64,000 bases of DNA, taken from Yuukianura sp. NJ FZ-2021 (Eukaryota). The position numbers and the translations under genes are program-made. The notes under the pieces were generated by a model, which was not told where the DNA came from, made no database searches, and saw nothing but the letters and a program-made list of their open reading frames with translations. Of this stretch, positions 1 to 58,644 are shown piece by piece. Numbering within the stretch: position 1 is the first letter of the stretch; every line of letters starts with the position of its first letter. The stretch lies in assembly GCA_046563655.1 (NCBI GenBank), contig CM102288.1, positions 4,278,001-4,342,000 of the forward strand, in the 5' to 3' direction.

Positions 1-40
1 ACTTGTAATTTGACAATGTTAATTTATGTTTTTTCTGAAG

Positions 41-2447
41 ATGAGACCCCCATTACATGACGCTGCCTTGTTGGGGGATGAAGGCAAAGTGAAGAGGCTA
101 ATCGCATCGGGGAGTGATTTGAATGAATTGGATTTTGTAAGATTCGTAATTCTAATTGTAAATTAAAATTAGCAATAATTTCAGTAAAAAGTAAAAGTTT
201 TGACTAACTTTTAAAAAAATTTCTCCAGGCGGGATGTACCTGTGTTCAGTTGGGGGCTGCTGCAGGTCACCACGACTTGGTTCAACTTCTGGTCGCTGCT
301 GGAGCTTCAGTTACAAACAAAGATGTATCTGTAAGTTTTATGTTCAAAGCTAATTTAGGTAGTGCTGGCTAATGGACGTCGGATTTTTGTACTTTTTAAG
401 CACGGGAATACTGCTCTACATGAAGCGTCGTGGAGAGGCTACTCAAAGCTAGTAAAATTTCTTTCAAACCCTCAAACGGTCAATGTACAAAACAAAGGTA
501 AATTGTGAGGTCAAGTTTTCTGAAATTCCAGCCACTAAAACGTCAACTTTTGAATTTAGGCGGGTTCACACCAGCACATTTAGCAAGTCAAGCTGGCCAT
601 AACCAATCCATTCGAGAACTGCTTCTTGCCGAAGCGGATCCAAATATTGCCAACACTTATGGCGACACTGCTCTCCACACAGCCGTCCGATACGGTCATG
701 CGGGTGTTACCCGAATTTTGCTCAGCGCTCGTGCTGTTACAGATATCCGTAACAAGGTAATGAGACAAAGTACTATTTTAATCTACAACCGTTGCTAAAC
801 GTTCATCTGAATTTTTTTTTTCATGCAGAATGGCGACACACCTCTTCACATTTCTTCTGCGATGGGTAGGAAAAAATTAACCAAAATCCTTCTGTCGGCT
901 GGATGTCTCCCGCACGTCCAAAATAATCAAAACGAAAGTGCCTTGGATATCAGCATTCGAAAAGGATTTGAAGACGTCACTTCCGTACTTCAAAATCCAC
1001 CCGCCGTCGTTACTCCAATAGAAAGAGATGCAATACGAGCCTCAAAGTACAAATATGGAGCAGGTCCCAGTACTGCAGCGACGGTTACGAATTTAGCAAG
1101 TTCCAACAGAACTGGCAGTGGTGGAAGTCATCACGTCCTAGTCGAAGCCGGTCCACCGACAAGATCCAGTAAACGTTCAAATGAATCAAGTAAAACTGGA
1201 TCGAAGTCTAAAAGTACTTCGAGTATCAACCGTGGACAAGATGTGAGAATGTCAATTTCAAACAATACTGCCGCTGGAATTACGTCAAGCCGAACTACGC
1301 TGCAAGAAGTGCCAAAATGGTCTCCTTATGGATGCCATAACCAACCGAATCCTGGTGCGTTCCCGCCACCCAACATTGATTCTCTTCCGAGTGACCCACT
1401 GAGGACTGGAGAACTTTACTACTTAGACTTGGCTGGAAATATCCATAAGGTAAAGTTAATATAATTTAAAACATATTATTATAATAATTTAAAACACTAT
1501 CACAAAATAATATTAATACTTTAAACCGTAGCACTACGTCCTAGTTGTAAAATTGGAATGGGGTATGTAAAAAGTTGCTTCTTGGCAAAGTGGTATTGTT
1601 CCCGGCGTGTCTTTTACGAGACGCGGGTTCGAATCTCGCACGAGTTTCTGCTGATGATTACAATTTGCGGCTGATTATGGTTGATGAAACTTCAAGCCTG
1701 CTAAAAATTTCTTGTGTCTGAAGAAACTCGTGTTCGATTTTTATATTTACTTTTAAAAATCCAAATTTTAATAACCGTTTCTAAAAATTACTTTCTTGAA
1801 ATCTATTTTGGTTTTCAGGGTCCGATGGGCGTTTCCGAAGGATGCTACTGTGGCCCCACTGTACTTTTGAGTCAAGCCAGAAGTAGTCAGTCGTTGATGG
1901 GCCTGGATGGACCAGCACTGCAAGTATTTGAGGTCAAAGGTCAAGATGAAAGTAGTGTTGATAAACGAATGAACAAGAGGAGTCAACGGAATAGAGTGAG
2001 CCCTGCACAGGTCAATCGAAGTGGCCTTGACCTTGCCCCCAGATATGAAGATCAGCTCAAATCGCTTACTCATCAGCTTTCCAAAATCCACTTCGACACG
2101 CAGGCGCAGTTGAGTTCACTTCATTCCATGCTCAATGAACGTCTCAAAACTTCAAGTAACAGTCAAGACCAAGACCACGACCTGGAATCTACTACGATTC
2201 CGGATGAAAATGAAGTGAGACTCAAGGAATGGGTTAGACAGTATCGTCGTTTTAGAAAAGGTAGGACAAAAACTTCAAAAAAAAAAGTGTTCAAAAATTG
2301 AAAATCTGTTTTCAATTTTCAGAATTGACCAAAAATCCGAAAACTCTTCAGCATGCCAATGACCTTCTGGCTTCCGCTTCATCACTTCTATCAGCTCGTT
2401 TGGCTTCTCCAGCTCCACCGGATTCAGAAACAGACAGCGGGCTTTAG
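41..2447 (+). CDS. Ankyrin-repeat protein, Diego/ANKRD6-like (multi-exon; 5' end may extend upstream of the window)
   Basis: Exons encode successive ankyrin repeats (PLHDAALLG, GNTALHEASWRG, GFTPAHLASQAG, GDTALHTAVRYG, GDTPLHISSAMG). These are followed by WSPYGCH...YYLDLAGNIHK|GPMG..CYCGP, which I recognise from arthropod Diego/ANKRD6 proteins. Stop TAG at 2445-2447. Confidence 0.75.
1578..1646 (+). other. tRNA-like sequence (tRNA pseudogene or tRNA-derived SINE head) in an intron
   Basis: Pol III A-box-like TGGCAAAGTGG at 1583-1593 and a T-arm/B-box GCGGGTTCGAATCTCGC at ~1623-1639. No convincing acceptor or anticodon stem. Confidence 0.5.
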
Positions 2448-2772
2448 CACTTTAAGCAGATCAGTACGCTTGCGCGCGTGAAAAATTGCCAAAATGGAGA
2501 TAACGTTTAAGTATTAGCTTCTAACACTAACCAGAGCCATTTTATTTCTTATACACTAAGCTAATCCGTCCAAAGTATTTTTGCAAATTAACATTTTTAC
2601 AGTAATTAATTAATTATGCTATTAATTAATAATTAACACGCTGTTTGTACCTGCTCACTCATTCACTGACTCATCTCTGCTCATCGTGTTGACACATAGT
2701 GTTAATGTAAGGCTTAAATAAAACCTTAGGTTTTGTTGCTTTATTGAAATTCAACGTTTAAGGACTCTTGCG

Positions 2773-4011
2773 TTATCCTCGGCTTTCAAAATACGTAAAA
2801 TCCTAAATACAAATTCAAAAATTTTAGAATTTGCATAAATCGAATTTTTGAATTTGAAAGAAAAATACTTACTATCAGGAACGTTGAGCCAATGAGCACT
2901 GCTTTGTACTCGGGACCTGCGTGAAAATTTTCAGTGTTTTTCAGAAATTCGAAATTTTGAAACTGATGAGTTTGTATTTACGTAATTTTTTTGGAAATTG
3001 TATTCCAAAAGTGTCCACGTCACTGAAGGATTCTTTGATGACTCCTCCCCACTGTTTAGTTATGAGTCCAATTTCAACTGGATCATCTTCGGCAGTGAAT
3101 ATTTTGAAACTGACTTTACAGCAGACACAAGTATGTGCTGGACCACGAATCCAGAAAAGTACTTTTCCAGTATCATCGGATACTTCGAATGTTGGTCGGC
3201 ATGACATGACATGTCGGACGTACCCGATCACTTCTCCAGAATCGTAAGTCACCTCCACTTTCTACCAAAATTCAAAAATTTAAAGCAATTTTGGAATTAT
3301 GTTTTTTGAAATTTTGAAATTTTTGTTGGTGAACACACATTTCCACAGCAGATGCCACAGAGACAGCAGAGGCCAAAGGTCAACCTCCGTTCAATGTTGA
3401 AAATCCGGTTGCCATTTTCATTGTAAACGTTGACCTCGAACGGGCGATTGGCGCCAAAACAGCATCGAAACCAAAACGAAGTATTTTCTGAAGCCAGAAG
3501 AATCCGTTGACCATGAGTGTTCCTCAGGATGTACTGATTGTCCAATTCCATTCCAGGTAATTCTGGACAACATTTTCAAAAATTTGGAAATTCGGGTTTC
3601 GAAATTTTGATTTAGACTCACTTTCGCCTTCTTCGTACATTTGTTCCAGAAAAATCATGTCGTGAGCCACGAGACACTGAAGTTCAGTTGGATAGGATTT
3701 GTGTATGTGGTGGTGGCGGTCTTTTCCTGAACCCACCGACGCCGACCTGGGACTGCTTAAGTAAATCGCTAAGAACATTTTTTAGAAAAGTGGACTTTTT
3801 TAAACTCGTTTTTTAAAAATATTCTTAATTTCTCACCTTTCGATAGCTCAGATTCACCTTTCTTGGAATCTTTTGATTTCGCAGGTTTGGGTTTCGACTC
3901 TGGTGCAACTTTGGAACCTTTTCGTTTCGGTTCTGATGGCGATTTCGCTGCTTTTGGTTCTGACTTCGGACGTTTTGGTTTCGGCCCTGGTACGGCCTTC
4001 TTCGGACTCAT
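2773..4011 (-). CDS. Phospholipid scramblase family protein, paralog 1 (Lys/Pro-rich N-terminus)
   Basis: Exons give NQYILRNTHGQRILLASE, RCCFGANRPF, IRGP..CVCC, IGLITKQWGG, FSDVDTFGIQFP, AVLIGSTFL and DFTYFESRG*, all typical PLSCR motifs. Confidence 0.85.
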
Positions 4012-4226
4012 TCTTTAAAACAAAGAAATCGACAACAAACTTTTCGGTTTTTTTTAAAACAAGCGTTTGTAGTTTTATTTTTCAAATTGCTGCGACTTTT
4101 TTTTTGATGAAATTTTGTGAAACTCAAACTTATACAATATGGCTGCCTAACTTGCCATGGCAGCGATTTCTACTACTAAAACTTGAAAATCTTCTTGGTG
4201 TACTTCATCAGCTTTAGAAGTACTTC

Positions 4227-5472
4227 TTAGTAGTGGTGGTGATGACGTCCACCACCAGAGCTCTCAAAGTATCCAAAATCCTGGATCAAGGTCAAAGGTC
4301 AAATGTTAAACACAAAAACAAACCTATAAGTTTCAAAATTCTAAACCATGAAAACTTACAATAACAAAAACTGCTCCCAAAATCAGTGCCTTGTTTCCAA
4401 AGAATCAGAAAAGTGCAAATTAGAATTTTTTTAAGAGCCTGATTTTCAATTTTGAACTTTGACCTCTGACCTTAAGTTTTGGCGGGAGTTGCATCATGAA
4501 CCGAACTCCAAACGTATTTGCATCGGACACCAATTCAGCAATGTTAGCTGTCTTCTGAATCACACCCACCGTTGTCACTCCATCCGGAAGGAAAATTGGA
4601 AACTCCGCAGTACAACATGGACCTTATAACAAAATTGAATTAATTATAATTAATTTCATAATTAAATACAATTAATTCAACAATTAAATTATATTAATCA
4701 AACCCATTGTGCAAAATGTACAGCAGTCTCCACAGCCAGGGCCCTGAATTGTGAATACCAATTGACCAGAGCCGTCTTTCAACTCGAAAGCAGGCGTGCA
4801 GCAACTACAAACCTGCTGCGCCGTTCCCATAATCTCTCCACTCATGTGTGTTACCACAACTTCCTGAAGGTCAAAGGTCAACAAGTTAAATCAAAGGTCA
4901 AAGGTCATTGACTGAAATTGTGGTCATACATTTCCACCACAGTAGTTACATTGACAAGCCAAGGTACAGGAACAGTCTCGGATCATGGTCAAAACTGGGA
5001 CACCGAAGAAATTCATGAGTTGAATGACGAAGGGCCTCCCTTTCCCACCGCAATAGACGACACAGGGACTGCTCACTTCGGCGGCAAAGAACATGCGCTG
5101 TCCATAACTGTCCAAGATCTCATACTTATTGGCAGTTTCAATTCCGACGAACACTAAAATATCCCAGAATGAGGTCAAAGGTCAATTGTGAGCATTATGT
5201 ATATTGGAAATGTCACTTGCCCTCTAGCATTTCGAAGAGTTGATGCACAAAGAGAGCATCCATGGAGGCCAAGTACTCCAGACCTATAACAAAATTCAAT
5301 TAATTATAATTAATTTCATAATTATGTATAATAAATTCAACAATTAAATTAATATTAATCAATCCAGACCAGGGGGACATCCTTGGAGCATCACAGTTTG
5401 AGGTGACGAGGAAAGCGGGGCTGACGGTGTGGGTTGAGCCGTCACTACATTTTGAGATGGATGTTCTGCCAT
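4227..5472 (-). CDS. Phospholipid scramblase family protein, paralog 2
   Basis: MAEHPSQ...GCPPG|LEYLASMDALFVHQ, ETANKYEI, GRPF, IQGPGC, SDANTFGVRF, ALILGAVFVI, DFGYFESSGGGRHHHHY*. Includes a GC-AG intron at 5154-5220. Confidence 0.88.
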
Positions 5473-5830
5473 GTTTAGAGTGTTGATTAATTAATTAGCA
5501 ACAGAATTATAGAAATTAGTCAAATGAAGTGTCAAAACTGGAGACAGGCAAAGATTTTTTTTTTCGGAGAAAATCGAAATTCATTCTCCGAAAAAGAAAT
5601 GGAAAGAAGAAAATTTTCGACAAAAAGTGAAAATTTTCATCTTTGTTTGTAAAAACAAAGCACGGAATAGTAGGAAATGTCAAGGTTACACTGAAAAAAT
5701 ATCCGCAATTTACTTCGCACATTCTCTTATATTTTTAACACACGAATATTTACACACGCAGAATAAAATATTATGACAAAAATTATAACATAATATTCAA
5801 TTTGTACAGAAAAAAAATGAAGTTGGTCGC

Positions 5831-7001
5831 TTAGAAGGCAGCAGGCTGCGGCTTGTCTTTCTTGGCCGAACTTTCAAAATACCCGAAATCCTGGAAAGGT
5901 CAAAGGTCAAAGTATTAGAAGTGTCAAAACACGTTAAGTAATACGCAAAATTTGAACTTGACTTACAATCACAAAAACTGCTGCAAGAATCAGAGCCTGA
6001 AGGAGATACAATTTTTACATTTGGATTTTTTTTCAGATCTTAAAAATTTCAAAATTTCAAAAAAATGAAATCGTTTCAACTTTGACCTTTTGTCTTGGAT
6101 CCAATTTAACTGCGAAAGTGACTCCAAAAGTATTTGCATCAGACACTAATTCCCGAAGATCTGCTTGTTTTCGAATCACTCCAGCGGGCGTATCCTCATC
6201 TGGAAGATACACTTTAAAGTCTGCTGTACAACAGGCGCCTGAAATTAAAAGTAATTAACACTGCATTTTAAAATTGTTAATTAACATTGTTAAAAATTAA
6301 TCCAACTATAGCTTCGTTCATACCCATGATGCAGCACCCACAACAATCAGCGCACGCTGGACCACGAATAACAAATTCAAGTTCTTCGTTTTCATTCTTC
6401 AGTTCAAAATGGGGTCGGCAGCAGCTCCATTTTTGCTTTGCCGTTCCAATGACCTCTCCTCCAATATGTTTCACTGACACTTTCTAGCAAGGTCAAAGGT
6501 CAAAATACAAAAAAGTAAAAGTTTTCGAAATTTTGAAGTAATAACTTGCATTTCCACCACACATGGTCAAGCCACAGCAGAACAAACAGCATGAGCACTT
6601 CCGTTGGATCGTCAAAATGGGAGCTCCCACGGCATTTAGCAGTCGAATTGTAAATGGTCGTCCTCTGCCACCGCAACAGACGCAGCAGTAGTTCGTCATC
6701 TCTGCCGCAAAGAATATCCTTCGACCAATCGTGTCCATCACCTCGTAGCGATTGGACGTCTCCAGTCCAGCGAAGACTGAAAACGAAAAAAAAAACAGAG
6801 AAAGTCAAAGGTCAATGCCCGTTTTTTGGTTCAGGTCAAAGGTCAATGACCTTCCACTGGCTCCAGAAGTTGTTTAACAAAGAGGCCTTCCATTGCCGCC
6901 AAATGCTCGAGTCCTGGCGGACAGTTTGGAACTGCCATGTCTGACAGGCCCCCTGGACCTGGTTGAGTCGTGAGTGCTGTCACGTGGGAAATCCCGTCCA
7001 T
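5831..7001 (-). CDS. Phospholipid scramblase family protein, paralog 3
   Basis: MDGISH...NCPPGLEHLAAMEGLFVKQ, ETSNRY, GRPF, IRGPAC, SDANTFGVTF, ALILAAVFVI, DFGYFESSAKKDKPQPAAF*. Includes a GC-AG intron at 6484-6549. Confidence 0.88.
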
Positions 7002-7465
7002 TGCTCAAAATTTCAAAAAACAAATTTAGTTTGACCATAAACTTGACCCAGAGTTTTGGTGTGACCTTTTGGCAGGAGCCCACGAACTTTTTTTAGTAGG
7101 AGACTCCCTTTTTTTTAACAAAACCTCAACATTTCAAAACAATAATGCAACAAAACCGTGACAAAATTCTACGACAAAATTTTAGTTTCAAGTTTAACCC
7201 GCCATTACAGTTACCATGGAAAGCATTCAACATAAGAAAATGCGGATTTGAAAAGAAGCAAGTTTCAATTCCATCACAACTTCCAAATTTTTGTTCTTCC
7301 AGTCCATGGGAACAAAATTATATCGAGCGGCTTGCAATTCAAGTACAAACTTTCAGTTTTGAATTGATTTGAGTTGAAAATGTTTTAGTGTGATTAAAAA
7401 ATTTGACCTTTTGCTTTTTAGCCTGGCAGTCGCAGTCTTGTACTGAACGAGAATAGAGTACGAGA

Positions 7466-9876
7466 ATGAAATTTGCAGAACATTTGAATTCTCACATTAC
7501 TCCAGAATGGCGCAAACAGTACATCCAGTATGACGTACGTAAGGTCGTTGCTACATCTATGACAGCGTGACCTTTGACCTCTGAATCTCAATTTTTACAG
7601 GAAATGAAAGCAATTTTGTACAAACATCAAAAACAGTTTTTGGCCAAAACCGAGCCGACTTTTCGACTTGCCTACCTCCGTGATTTTGACGAAACCTTTT
7701 TCGGTTTTTGTCAAGAAGAGTTGGACAAGATCTCGTCTTTTTATAATGGTGACGTCAAAGGTCAAAATTTCTAAAACCATTGCATTGACCTTGACCTTTG
7801 ACCTTAGAAAAGCAAGCCTACTACTCCAGGATTCTGTTGGCACTGAAAGCTGAACTACCCAAATTCTGGCTCCATGCTTCCGGCTCAACGGATTTTGGAT
7901 ATCAACTGCTGCCGAAGCGCAAACGCGACTTCAAGAAGAAACATGACCTTGAAAATGCTTTTTCCGAACTTTATCTTGGACTTGTCCTGCTTCAAAATTT
8001 TCAGCAGTTGAATTACACCGCATTTCGAAGGATTCTGCGCAAACATGACAAACTCTACGACTCGGAATTGGGGGCCGCTTGGTTTGCTGAAAAAGTTGAA
8101 GTAGCATTTTTCCATATTGACCCTTCAACTGACAAGCAAATTACGGAAATTGAAGAAATTGTGACAGAGGCCTTCGAGGGACAAGACAAGGGAAAAGCTA
8201 TGCAAAAACTAAGGGTCCCGCCCTTAAACGAACGAACCAAAATCAAAACCTATGCACTCGGACTTTTTACGGGGGCTCTCGGATTCTCAATTCAGCAAAT
8301 TGCGCTAACAATTTATGGTAAATTGATAAAATATAATATTATTATTAAATTCATAATAGTAAAGTACAGGATGTTCAACAGATACGAGTTGGACCAAAGG
8401 CTATGACTGGCACACCATCATTCGCTTGTACCGAGGATACATCTTGGCCAGTCTGTACATTTTCCTCATGGGGGTCAACATCCTAGGCTGGAGGAAAGCC
8501 GGGGTCAACCATGTTTTGATCTTCGGCCTTGACCCGAGAAGTCACTCGGAAGCAGCCGACTTGTTCACGATTGCGGGATTTTTAAGTTGTGCAACGGCCT
8601 TGAATTTTATTGGATTTCTGGAAGCGCCATCTCTCAAAATTCCGATTTACGTTTTCCCAATTTCACTTTTCATTTTTTACTTACTTTTTCTATTCAATCC
8701 TTTCAACTTCCTTTGGCGGGAAGCTCGGTTCTGGTTACTTCGAAATCTGGTATGACCTTTGACCTCTGACCTTTGACCTTGACCTAACAATTTTTTCTAC
8801 TCTAGGTTAGAGCCTTGACCTCCGGATTTCATACTGTAGCATTTGTGGACTTTTGGCTAATGGACCAAACCCAGTCGTTGACCCCGATGCTACTGGATTT
8901 TGAATACACAATTTGTGCCTACAGCGTCACCACAGGCACAAATGATTGGACGCCATGGTGGAATCGTACCAGAGCCACCGTGACGTCATCAGTCGACTAC
9001 CACGAGTACTGCAGTTCAAAGCTCTCCGTAGTCCGAGTACTCATCCGAATGCTTCCGTCTACAATACGACTGATTCAGTGTATTCGTCGATTCTGTGACC
9101 TCGGGAATCCTAAGGAACATCTTGTAAATGGCGGGAAATATTTCATCACCATTTGCGGCATTGGGTCTTCAGCGATCCTTGCTGTAACGGAAGTGTACAT
9201 TTACCCGGGAAACTTGCGTTATGTCAATCCAGCTTTCTACGTTTGGATCCTCCTATCATTCTTCACAACACTGTATTCTTATTACTGGGACGTGTCACGT
9301 GACTGGGGATTGTTTGACCCCAATGCAGAGGTCAAGTATCTTAGATCAGAACTGGTCTACAGTTCAAAGTACTACTACTATACTGCCATGGTCGTCGATC
9401 TCATACTGCGCTTCTCATGGGCCATCTCTTTGTCCATTACTGAAAACAAGTACATCTCGGCTGACATCATGCTGACCGTAACGGCTCCACTTGAACTTGT
9501 CAGGTTAGTCAAAAAAGTTAGGTTGAAAAAGTTAAAATCCTAGGTTATGGTTTTTGAAAGTGAAAATTCTTTGTTCAACTTTTTTAGGAGATTTGCTTGG
9601 AACTTTTTTCGTTTAGAAAATGAGCATTTGAATAACGTTGGAGATTTCCGAACACTGAAAGACATTACGATCCGACCGATTCCGAAGGCTGTGATTGGTT
9701 CAACAGTGAAGGAAGTGCGACAAGAAAAAGACGCAGACAATGGCGCAGACGTGGTCGTAGAAATTCTGAAGATCCGAAAAAGTGTCAACTCGGAGTCAGT
9801 TCCAGTTTTGGCTCCGAAACGCTCCAGTGCACTTAGTGACCCATTTATAAAAATTGACAGAAAACTTTCACATTGA
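7466..9876 (+). CDS. XPR1: XPR1/SYG1-type phosphate exporter (SPX + EXS domains)
   Basis: Starts [25 protein letters not shown] motif [22 protein letters not shown], then [41 protein letters not shown] and [18 protein letters not shown]. Confidence 0.95.
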
Positions 9877-10836
9877 CAATTTACTAAAATAGGCTAACTT
9901 TTAATAAATTCAGGATCTTCAAAATTTTGAGGAAAGAAACTGAAATGGTCATTCAGTACTCATTTTTACCCGCCCAAAGAATATTTTTTATTTTTTTATT
10001 TTGAAAGTAGGATTTGGAAGTTGAGTCAAGAGTTTAGAAATGTATTAGAATTAGAAATGTACTTCTTTTTTTTTGAAAAGTTGGATTTCGAAATATGAAA
10101 TATTTGTGGAAAAGAAGCAGAAACTGGATTTTTGAAAACTGTGTCCTTGAACTCTGTAAAAGTGCAACTGGTTTTTTTGATTACGTTTAGTTACGGTTTT
10201 TTTTTGTTTCAGCTGAAAGCGGTTTTTGAAAAACCGCTTTTCAAAACAACATGAAAACTTTAGTTTTGGTTTCTCATCAACCGGTTTCTCCAGTATCCGG
10301 TTTTTTCGTAACCGTTTTAAATTATTTTGGATCAAAAGTTTGTAAGAATGCACAACCTTTTCCACACATTGTTAATCATGTACAATCTTACATAAAAATG
10401 GTGCACACATAAACAACAATCAAGCAAATTCAACATTTAAGTGCAAATGTTAAAACCAAAATTTTTATAACTCGAAATTTTTTAAATATTTCCGTGCACT
10501 TAGAAATCTTCACGCAACCAAAACCAGAAATGGTTGCATGGCTGCACCAAAATTGCAAAAGTGTACAGCAAACTTTCACATTTGGAGTAACAAGTTTCAC
10601 CGATATGCACACAAAAGTTTTAATTTTCCAACATTCAATTTATTACATTTTTAGCAAATTAGACAACAATCAAAATTTCAACTTACGTTATGAAGTATAA
10701 CTTTCTAAAAAATTCAAAACCTCGCACCTTATTTCTAAAACTAAAATTTTTAAAAAATTTTGTCATCATCAATTCTGATTGCTTCAGTCCATGCATGACT
10801 GACATGACGCCTCCGCATCTTCTGCACCACATGACC

Positions 10837-12983
10837 TTACATGACCTTTGACCTTTCATAGATGTCTCTCTTCCTCCTGAATGCCGATCCATCTCCAGTA
10901 GGATCTTGTAGCCATGGATAATGTCTGGGGCATTCAACACAAGTGAACAACCGCAGTGTCTCTCCCGGTAACTCCCGTGTTGTCAATGGGCATGCATTTG
11001 GAATAGAGCAGTACGGTTGACCTTTGACATCACACTTCTCCTTCCACTCCTGAAAGTCACGCAGGGCCGTCAGTTCAGTTGGATTCTGCATCCACTGGAC
11101 AACTTGCAACATTGTTGTAAAGTAAACGTCACTCCGAGCCAGCATTTCGTCAATGAATTTGCCCAGTTCCTCTCTGAATTCTCGTTTGGACTTGAGCCAA
11201 GAGGCGTGAAAGTGGAGTCCAAGTGGAGCCCGATTGGTGGAAAAGTGGCGATTGAAGTTGTGTCGCAGGAGTCGCCCAAACTGTTCTCCTGTTTGGATGT
11301 TTGAACAAGACGAGACCATGTGACATCCTGGCAAGGACTCGTCAAAAGTCGGATCATCTCGACGATCCAGTTCGTTCATGACCATTTCCCAGACGGGGTG
11401 GGATCGAGATGGACAGTTTTGGGCGTTACCGTGACATTTGTGTGGCATTCGGAAGTAGAGCGTGTAGGGCCAAATCGGAACACGACCGAGTGGAGCAGTG
11501 ATGGATGCATCGTAGACAAAGAACTGATCGGACATCATGTCTGCCGGATACAAAAATTTAAAAATGAAGCAACACAATTTTGAAAAAAAAAAGTTGAAAC
11601 TTTTCGAAGTGAAACATGTTCATTTTTCAGGTTAGAGTTACATAGTAGGTTAAGTGATTCTGATTTACCAAATTGCTTGTTTCCACCAACTCGAAGAAAT
11701 GGCGCGCGAATTCCAACGACGCTTCCATCACTGATGTTTGCAAATCTGCAGAATACGAAAAAAGTAAGATTTTTTGAACTTTCTGTTTTATTCAAAATTT
11801 TGATTTTGTCCAAAATTTTGACCAACCGTTCAATGATGAGTCGATTTCCAGCCATTTCGGCCAACCAATCGTCGTATCTCCCGGCAGTCCAGTATTCCGG
11901 GTCATCTTTGTTCGTAATTGAAAAACTGCCGATTTCATGACCTTGTCGATGCAATTCCTACGATTTGGACAAAAAATGTTAAAGGTCATCAAAGTGTAAT
12001 GTACAGGTCACGAGGTCACAAAGGTCACAGGGTCATACCTGCACTGCTGAGTAGTTGGTGTACTTGTGTGAAGTGAAGAAAGTTCCTTTGATTTGACATC
12101 CGTTGGGATTCTGACGATTTCCATTGAAAATGTCCGAGTAGAGGTCTACATTGTCCACGTTAACGGCTCCATTGAAAGTAATCGTTATCATTTGGGGAAC
12201 CTGTTTTAAAAATGCTTTTTGAAAAATTTTGAAAACTTTGATTTTTAATTTTAAAAGATTACGGTATTCGGTTCAAGGGCTCCTGGAATCCGAGTTCCAT
12301 CGGCAGAGCAGAAACAGTCTGGCAAAACGCACTGTGTTTGGTCACATTCGGGAGCACGATTCGGATCGGTTTCAACCGCTGAAACAAAAATAAATGAATT
12401 TTTGAAGTTTTTCTTGAAAATTGAAATCAAAATTTTGAAAACTTACTGCAAGCATTCTCATCACTTCCATCTTGACAGTCTTTCTTGTCATTGCAAAACA
12501 AGGCTTTATCTAAACATTCTCCGTTTCCGCACTGCAATTTCCCGTCTGGACATACTGGCTCATCAGTCACGAGATTCGGAAGAACTTTTCGAGGTTCTGG
12601 ACAAAAATGTCAAAGGTTACCAAAAATTTTGAAATTTTGGTCAAACGCTTAAGAATTTTGAAAATTTATTTACTTTCTAGCTGGTCACAGTTTTGAACGC
12701 GACCTTTCCAGTCACAAGTTTGTTTGTAAATGTCAAAGGCCAACCCATTTGGACATTTGACCGCTCCGAGGCGAATAGTTCCAGTGAGACCAGCTTGGTC
12801 ACATCGTACGACATCACGACAGTCGCCCTCCGTCGTCAGTCGGAAGTACTCGTCTTCTGGTCGCCCTTTGCACAATTTCTCAATCTGCTGAGTATTCGGA
12901 TTGACTTTATGGTGATCCTGGTCTTGACATGAGGTCAAACCAAGGAAAATGGTCAACAGACAGACCACGCCGAGCTTGCCCAT
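10837..12983 (-). CDS. verm: Group I chitin deacetylase (signal peptide, CBM14, LDLa, deacetylase domain), CDA2/vermiform-like
   Basis: Signal peptide, then the chitin-binding domain CKGRPEDEYFRLTTEGDCRDVVRC...CDWK and an LDLa repeat. Catalytic motifs ITITFNGAVN, GHEIGSFSIT, RAPFLRVGGNKQF, YDASI, NRAPLGLHFHASWL. Confidence 0.9.
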
Positions 12984-57900: not shown

Positions 57901-58644
57901 TTGTTTGTACACGCTCCAACTATTATTTATATACAAATTAATATATTATTTTAATTAATTATTTTTATTATTCTTACCTATAGGTCCAATACACAGTGAG
58001 CCACCACATAACAAACTGCCGGCCCAAGCCACTTGACCTTTGCCAGCATCAAAGGACTCTGCCATTTGCGGCAGGAAAACGCCAAAAGTACATGTGATTC
58101 CGTCCAGCACCAAGTTGCACACGAAAGAAGCAAACACGATGACCCACCCGTAGCCACCATCCGGTGGCACAGGAGCCCCACCATGAATCATTTCATTCAA
58201 AATTGCCTCCTCTTCTTCCTTATCTTCAGATTGCTGACCTCCAAATGTATCTAGAATACTCTTGAAAGAGGCTTTGGAGGTCATGGAACGCAGAGATTGA
58301 CCTGACCTGTTCCCCATCACACTTGCCTTGGAGGTCATTGACCTTATGGACCTATTTAACCTTGTTTCTGACGGGGTCATGGGTTCACTCTCTCCTTCTG
58401 GAACGTACACAGGGACATGATGACTGTTTTCCATGCTAGTGTCGTGCTAGAAACAGGAAAACATGAGTCAAGAATATTTCAAATTGCTTTTCTTAAAAAT
58501 TTTTCAAAATTTTGGATTCATTGTTTTCAATTTTAGAATTTAAAATGAGTTTAATTTTACCCAATCACTTGTTTCTGGTCCGTTTGGAACAGAAATGTCA
58601 TCAGGTACACTTGAATTTGAAACTGACAGATCCTTTTCACCCAT
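54953..58644 (-). CDS. Monocarboxylate transporter (SLC16/MCT family, MFS)
   Basis: PPDGGYGWVIVFASF, YFEKRRALATGIAVCGSG, a long cytoplasmic loop with RPLSRKDIFYSGS, NTVGRV, LLGLDNLTNAFG and GSPFAG. Probable first coding exon 58644-58561. Confidence 0.93.

What the first reader, a model, noticed from the sequence alone, without database searches (positions are those of the whole stretch)
4623..5370. Apparent intron gain: a paralog-specific intron is a near-copy of another intron of the same gene, flanked by an 8-bp direct repeat
In scramblase paralog 2, introns 5284-5369 (86 nt) and 4623-4703 (81 nt) are nearly identical over ~75 nt (TATAACAAAATT.AATTAATTATAATTAATTTCATAATTA...ATTCAACAATTAAATTA.TATTAATCAA). 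The 4623-4703 position (MG|xCCT) is shared with paralog 3, so it is the older one. The 5284-5369 intron interrupts CPPG|LEYL, where paralog 3 (CPPGLEHL) and the equivalent region of paralog 1 have no intron. It is bracketed by TCCAGACC at 5277-5284 and 5363-5370, and the duplicated exonic sequence supplies the GT donor. Inference: recent intron gain by templated insertion (double-strand-break repair or an introner-like element) with an identifiable source, which is rarely observable.
Basis: partly seen in the sequence, partly recalled or inferred. Interest (0 to 1): 0.75.

Follow-up and report, generated by a model that had tools for sequence, protein, structure and literature searches.

The report
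Intron copied within one gene
In a springtail-like animal, one lipid-scramblase gene gained an extra intron that is a near-copy of another intron 660 bases away in the same gene, and the duplicated bases at its edges suggest it was pasted in during DNA break repair; such events are known but rarely show both the source and the scar.

Summary
Confirmed. Introns B (5284-5369) and A (4623-4703) of scramblase paralog 2 match at 72 of 78 columns. That is far above any other same-gene pair with unrelated flanks (score 124, next 61). B sits between two copies of GGTCTGGA, which supply its GT and the G of its AG. Four genome searches find only these two copies and the core has no terminal repeats, so it is not an introner. 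B's position is absent in 8 of 8 other paralogs readable there. Caveats: A's position is shared with paralog 3 but missing in an orthologue from another species, and A holds a hairpin that looks young. No RNA run was listed and no B-less allele was seen. Best reading: a one-off templated insertion at a staggered break or template switch, copied from unspliced A (0.6). Same-gene intron copies are known from Oikopleura and fungi, and repeat-flanked new introns from Daphnia; seeing both marks in one intron is the unusual part. The scan has noted transposon-derived intron gains elsewhere in this genome, but not this kind.

The parts
4227..5472 (-). Scramblase paralog 2, 261 aa, 7 coding exons (5472-5370, 5283-5221, 5153-4930, 4863-4704, 4622-4471, 4389-4360, 4280-4227)
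   Evidence: gene model; PF03803 match; gapless match to outside scramblases across the B junction
5284..5369 (-). Intron B, the gained intron; 86 nt, phase 1 in the Gly codon of CPPG|LEYL; weak donor (6th percentile), good acceptor (73rd); read-through has stops and shifts the frame
5285..5362 (-). Inserted core of B, copy of A's body
   Evidence: 72/78 identical columns
5363..5370 (-). First copy of the 8-bp repeat GGTCTGGA; gives the last exon G and the GT donor
5277..5284 (-). Second copy of GGTCTGGA; gives the G of the AG acceptor and the start of exon 2
4623..4703 (-). Intron A, inferred template; 81 nt, phase 1 at MG|PCC; position shared with paralog 3, absent in orthologue L104
4635..4680 (.). 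AT-rich quasi-palindrome in A, 19 of 21 pairs with a 4-nt loop; 17 of 21 in B
   Evidence: matched or beaten by 1 of 1500 shuffles; among the top 3 of 1095 introns; DNA fold z -3.8
4620..4623 (-). GGTC across A's 3' splice junction, identical to the start of the target repeat: candidate microhomology
   Evidence: 3.9% of introns are followed by GTC
4704..4706 (-). TGG before A's donor, also present near the end of the target repeat: candidate second microhomology (needs a later 2-base change in B)
   Evidence: 2.2% of introns; inference
4629..4640 (.). Three segregating sites in A (4629, 4630, 4640); B carries the window's allele at all three
5831..7001 (-). Scramblase paralog 3; uninterrupted CPPGLEHL (Gly codon 6914-6912); intron 6239-6323 at A's position with unrelated sequence
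2773..4011 (-). Scramblase paralog 1; no intron at A's or B's position

Best explanation
B is a single, recent intron gain. An exonic site reading CCT GGT CTG GAG was broken with staggered ends, or a polymerase paused there. Synthesis switched to intron A, 660 bp downstream in the same gene, copied almost all of it, and returned to the target 8 bases behind where it left, probably by pairing GGTC, which also spans A's 3' splice junction. The template was unspliced: DNA, or less likely nascent pre-mRNA. The duplication supplied the GT donor, the copy supplied the acceptor region, and splicing restores the coding sequence exactly. Shown: sequence identity, junction repeat, two copies, paralog distribution. 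Inferred: direction A to B, the repair pathway (polymerase-theta-like end joining or replication template switching), splicing, and age (about 9% apart, 95% range 3.6-17%, against roughly 1.5-2% between alleles over mixed sequence).
For: Identity far beyond background. Exactly two copies in 4 of 4 searches of G000. B's position is in 1 of 11 scramblase loci, absent in 8, unreadable in 2. The five bases after B's GT that A lacks are exactly the next exon's bases, which an exact intron transfer would not give. Homology with A runs through A's acceptor into GTC, seen after 3.9% of introns. Using the hairpin as an internal reference, 3 substitutions are private to B, 1 to A and 1 is ambiguous. The spliced product matches outside scramblases without a gap: 29 of the 30 hits carrying the motif have the same spacing, of 150 scanned. 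The 3 exonic variants listed in paralog 2 are all synonymous. A contig of run X2 spans B, so it is not an assembly slip.
Against: The copy starts within 2 bases of A's 5' end, which selection does not require and which fits an excised-intron template; the DNA model needs luck or a TGG microhomology plus a later 2-base change. The GGTC match is only 4 bases and partly splice consensus. The orthologue L104 lacks intron A, so A's greater age rests on parsimony: loss of two adjacent introns in that lineage. L104 does not reach B's site. No intron-less allele was seen, though 15 of 30 joints were not displayed. Junction repeats are not enriched in this genome. It is one event.
Confidence: 0.6

Rival explanations
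1. RNA-templated version: the excised, debranched intron A RNA (or its cDNA) was captured at a staggered break, or copied by a reverse transcriptase that switched templates, in the same gene while it was being transcribed. The repeat comes from the staggered ends.
For: Both ends of the copy fall within 2 bases of A's own ends. Capture of intact intron RNA at breaks has been proposed for fungal stwintrons (PMC12403724, passages), and reverse-transcription template switching is a listed model (PMC3609843).
Against: It does not explain the GGTC match into A's downstream exon (3.9%). The fungal cases are seamless, without target duplication. The acceptor end is fixed by selection anyway.
Confidence: 0.15
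2. Direction reversed or common origin: A's present sequence is as young as B. B's sequence overwrote the intron at A's position, or both came from one AT-rich fold-back patch made during the same repair event.
For: A's hairpin is nearly perfect and so probably young. Paralog 3's intron at that site is unrelated. L104 lacks A. A can also be read as core between two GGT. Parallel gains at one site are common in Daphnia (PMC4202315).
Against: Paralogs 2 and 3 share two positions missing in L104, and one joint loss is simpler than four gains. A 3-base junction repeat is commonplace: 334 of 1334 introns have 3 or more. A is closer to the palindrome than B is. B would still be a gain.
Confidence: 0.12
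3. Classical intron transposition: A reverse-spliced into its own mRNA at G|GT, was reverse transcribed and recombined into the gene; the five extra bases were added later.
For: This is the published reading of the four same-gene pairs in Oikopleura (as reported in PMC3879977). The target is a G|GT proto-splice site and the orientation is sense.
Against: It predicts an exact copy with no duplication, so a second event must insert precisely the downstream exon bases. The introns next to B are retained.
Confidence: 0.06
4. B is an old intron lost from the other paralogs, and ectopic gene conversion made its body like A's.
For: No outgroup species could be read at B's site.
Against: It needs repeated losses across at least 8 paralogs. 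The flanks of A and B are unrelated (score 12). An intact 8-bp exon duplication would not last in an old intron.
Confidence: 0.04
5. B is an unspliced or poorly spliced insertion that has disabled this copy.
For: Weak donor (6th percentile); no RNA evidence.
Against: The spliced frame is intact and conserved, listed exonic variants are synonymous (3 of 3), and A's donor is as weak (4th percentile).
Confidence: 0.03

Closest known systems
Same-gene near-identical introns: Oikopleura dioica NII pairs (Denoeud et al. 2010, not read; as reported in PMC3879977 passages) and fungal same-gene duplications, SGD (PMC3609843, parts 1-2 of 3)
   Same: Two near-identical introns at unrelated positions of one gene; low copy number; rare (4 pairs in about 75,000 introns in Oikopleura; 82 SGD members in 24 fungi, half of them segmental duplications).
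   Different: Those were ascribed to reverse splicing or transposition; no junction duplication is mentioned in the passages seen. Here an 8-bp exon duplication forms the donor.
Daphnia pulex new introns from staggered double-strand-break repair (PMC4202315, passages and section 23; review PMC3443670, passages)
   Same: Very AT-rich, short, flanked by a direct repeat, with internal repeats; an arthropod.
   Different: Daphnia sources were almost never found (one mitochondrial, one rRNA, three weak foreign hits); here the source is a neighbouring intron. Daphnia cases have intron-less alleles; none was seen here.
Introners that take the 5' splice site from the target duplication (PMC9860276, passages)
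   Same: Same junction logic; 8 bp lies within the 3-9 bp range given.
   Different: Families there need at least four introns; here there are two copies, in one gene, with no terminal inverted repeats and no shared duplication length between A and B.
Templated insertions of alternative end joining / SD-MMEJ (review PMC7407515, passages)
   Same: Locally templated insert, microhomology at the junction, direct and inverted repeat scars.
   Different: Here the insert is a whole intron from 660 bp away and is spliceable; that review links the pathway to intron loss, not gain, in the passages seen.

Membership tests
Same-gene near-identical introns (NII/SGD) | Near-identical introns within one gene | tested here: met
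   72/78 columns
Same-gene near-identical introns (NII/SGD) | Flanking exons not homologous (not a segmental duplication) | tested here: met
   flank score 12, against 80 for a true duplicate pair
Same-gene near-identical introns (NII/SGD) | Both introns spliced | not testable with these tools
   no RNA holder listed; indirect support
Break-repair new intron (Daphnia type) | Short direct repeat at the intron ends | tested here: met
   8 bp; 7-base start match in 1 of 1489 introns
Break-repair new intron (Daphnia type) | More AT-rich than resident introns | tested here: met
   GC 0.09, lowest 1.2% of 1334 introns, (inherited from A)
Break-repair new intron (Daphnia type) | Derived state shown by intron-less alleles or outgroup species | tested here: inconclusive
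   absent in 8 of 8 readable paralogs; L104 does not reach the site; no skipping joint among 15 of 30 shown
Introner | At least four similar introns, in unrelated genes | tested here: not met
   2 copies
Introner | Terminal inverted repeats (many families) | tested here: not met
   core ends are not complementary and the hairpin is internal
Introner | Target duplication used as splice site | tested here: met
   for B only
Reverse-splicing transposition | Exact intron copy, seamless insertion | tested here: not met
   five extra exon-derived bases after GT

The most novel reading that the evidence does not exclude
Same-gene 'intron transposition' needs no RNA step. Intron ends and G|GT proto-splice sites resemble each other, so microhomology-guided repair can copy a whole neighbouring intron into an exon with near-correct ends (TGG on the left, GGTC on the right here). 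The product is spliceable and in frame from the start. Cases filed under reverse splicing in Oikopleura and fungi may partly be of this kind, and part of the 'missing sources' of repeat-flanked new introns may be neighbouring introns that have since diverged.
Probability: 0.3. Interest if true: 0.75.

Novelty: new variant of a known kind. Interest (0 to 1): 0.5.

Why it matters
The source of newly gained introns is rarely found: none for 168 nematode gains (PMC9169325, passages) and almost none in Daphnia. This intron shows source and junction scar together, and the scar argues against the reverse-splicing reading usually given to same-gene copies. It suggests a cheap test: re-inspect published same-gene intron pairs for junction duplications and microhomology. 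Limits: one event, none among 1386 predicted introns outside the window, no RNA, no intron-less allele, and no known effect on the scramblase.

Tried and rejected
Introner family: rejected, two copies in 4 of 4 searches; reversed-pattern controls gave 1, 4 and 1 matches, and the DNA search skips common words, so highly diverged copies are not excluded. 'Very AT-rich introns are a young class in this genome': not supported; 2 of 4 such introns had paralog-private positions versus 26 of 61 others (small numbers), and same-gene clustering was 8 pairs versus 4.5 expected, p 0.11. Genome-wide excess of junction repeats: none. General local intron copying: no second case in 954 kb; other high-scoring pairs were duplicated genes or exons, repeats inside long introns, or low-complexity matches. 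RNA: no RNA holder listed, which is no evidence either way. Presence/absence: X2 spans B; coverage of B in the independent sample X4 could not be read from the cut tables. Outgroup for B's site: the metagenome scan gave 1 locus from 249 candidate stretches, starting downstream of the site; protein searches gave no close orthologue and carry no intron data; a paper search on scramblase gene structure listed nothing relevant. My first hand-made exon list was out of frame and its 'p2' rows were discarded; models were used. One search failed with a script error. A report of a same-gene copied intron with a target duplication was not found in searches; the library lacks most subscription papers, and the Oikopleura primary paper and all supplements were not seen.

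Full report
Setting. The window lies at G000:C6:4278001-4342000 of a 98.7-Mb genome. A chitin deacetylase exon in the window is 95% identical to a protein whose cluster contains Folsomia candida and Allacma fusca members, against at most 88% for the insects listed, so the animal is probably a springtail (inference). Three scramblase genes lie in tandem on the minus strand.

Observation. Intron A (4623-4703) and intron B (5284-5369) of the middle gene are GT-AG introns whose bodies match at 72 of 78 columns. On the sense strand B is GGTCTGGA, core, GGTCTGGA. The first repeat gives the last exon base and the GT; the second gives the G of AG and begins exon 2. Removal restores CPPGLEYL; read-through hits stops. 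I trained a simple gene finder on 864 kb of this genome and ran it on 90 kb more. It gave 1334 + 155 predicted introns, unverified by RNA, and called A and B unaided. A/B scores 124. The other 594 pairs among 35 very AT-rich introns reach at most 66. Among 6426 same-gene pairs only one scores higher, from a duplicated gene segment, and the next is 61. B is the only intron of 1489 whose first 7 bases equal the next exon's (expected 0.16 per 1334). Counting both sides, 3 of 1334 introns have 8 or more repeated bases versus 1.2 expected: the repeat matters because it coincides with the copy.

Copy number. One DNA search and three patterns covering different parts of the core each returned only A and B. 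The core has no terminal inverted repeats. It is not an introner under the four-copy rule of PMC9860276 (passages).

Which is new. I modelled eleven scramblase loci of G000. B's position is occupied only in paralog 2; it is clearly empty in 8 and unreadable in 2. Other positions are widely shared, for example the last intron in 9 of 11. A's position is in paralogs 2 and 3 only. Metagenome contig L104 encodes a probable orthologue of paralog 2 (66% identity, same HHHHY end, support 94/91). It lacks A and the next intron, keeps the introns either side, and starts downstream of B's site. Four-fold sites among the three genes are saturated (20/66, 19/58, 19/59). The simplest reading is two old introns lost together in L104's lineage, but parallel gain or transfer between the tandem genes is not excluded. 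Paralog 3's intron at A's position is unrelated in sequence (p 0.17). A holds a 21-bp hairpin with 19 pairs (z -3.8) that has 17 pairs in B; against the perfect palindrome, 3 changes are B's, 1 is A's and 1 is ambiguous. This favours A as nearer the source state, unless A's hairpin was corrected later.

Population data. Only DNA contigs were available: three runs of one sample, possibly the source of the assembly, and one run of another sample. A contig of X2 spans B (5116-6227, 11 differences). No listed joint skips B, but 15 of 30 joints and 797 variant rows were not shown. A second allele of A differs at 4629, 4630 and 4640 in all four runs, and B agrees with the window's allele at all three. 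Listed contig pieces of X2-X4 differ from the window by about 1.4-2.2% (summed by hand from table 8). A and B differ by 7 of about 80 (8.8%, 3.6-17%). The copy is thus only a few times older than variation within the species (rough inference). All 3 exonic variants listed in paralog 2 are synonymous.

Mechanism. An exact reverse-spliced copy would begin GTTTGATT; B begins GT, then CTGGA from the next exon, then TTGATT. A staggered break or a backward return after a template switch gives this in one step. At the 3' side the match to A continues through AG into GTC, the same GGTC that opens the target repeat (3.9% of introns), which suits an unspliced template. At the 5' side the copy begins two bases into A, which selection does not demand. 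Either an excised intron served as template, or TGG at A's donor was a second microhomology (2.2%) followed by a 2-base change in B. In the latter case the first product had two donors, both in frame. I give 0.6 to local templated repair from unspliced A, 0.15 to an RNA template, 0.12 to reversed or joint origin, 0.06 to classical reverse splicing, 0.04 to an old intron converted, and 0.03 to an unspliced insertion. That B is a gain related by copying to A is about 0.9.

Comparison. Same-gene near-identical introns are known: four pairs in Oikopleura, read as reverse splicing (second-hand, PMC3879977 passages), and fungal same-gene duplications (PMC3609843, parts 1-2 of 3). Repeat-flanked AT-rich gains are known from Daphnia, mostly without a source (PMC4202315, passages and section 23; PMC3443670, passages, which also warns that flanking repeats were no commoner in gained Drosophila introns). 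Also seen as passages only: PMC3514964, PMC4122922, PMC10996645, PMC12403724, PMC9169325, PMC7407515. Six searches listed no report joining a same-gene source with a target duplication; coverage is partial and supplements were not read.

Verdict. Real and well supported as a recent local intron copy; a known class of event with an unusually informative junction; a single instance, unconfirmed by RNA or by an empty allele. Interest 0.5.

Noticed in passing
35 predicted introns in the 864-kb sample, e.g. window 8318-8369 and 57920-57977: A class of very AT-rich, TAAT-patterned introns (about 2.6%) distinct from the usual TGACC- or TTTTGAAA-rich ones; resembles repair filler, but younger age was not supported.
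   Followed up: partly
G000:C1:3054600-3054934 and 3076160-3076442 (L069, L071): A 200-240 bp MITE-like element with CAAGG inverted ends lies inside two introns whose positions are missing in the paralogs compared (a scramblase and a cytochrome P450); further copies at C1:3010639, 3188458 and C2.
   Followed up: partly
G000:C1:6787536-6791243 (L005): An intronless scramblase paralog (254 aa), a possible retrocopy, in a family that otherwise has introns.
   Followed up: no
L104:398-739: The paralog-2 orthologue lacks two adjacent introns shared by paralogs 2 and 3, a pattern expected from cDNA-mediated loss.
   Followed up: partly
window 5154-5220 and 6484-6549: Predicted GC-AG introns in paralogs 2 and 3, at different positions; GC donors are 20 of 1334 overall.
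   Followed up: no
window 1-12000: High sequence variation among contigs of one sample (395 variant places in X1, inflated by the loose 82% setting).
   Followed up: no
G000:C1:3164675-3164742 (L080): A 68-nt AT-rich intron with the strongest inverted-repeat score of 1095 short introns, an internal tandem duplication and a 6-bp junction repeat; a candidate young repair-made intron.
   Followed up: no
G000:C6:4499542-4500075 (L059-L060): An 89-bp duplication spanning an intron end and the following exon within one predicted gene.
   Followed up: no
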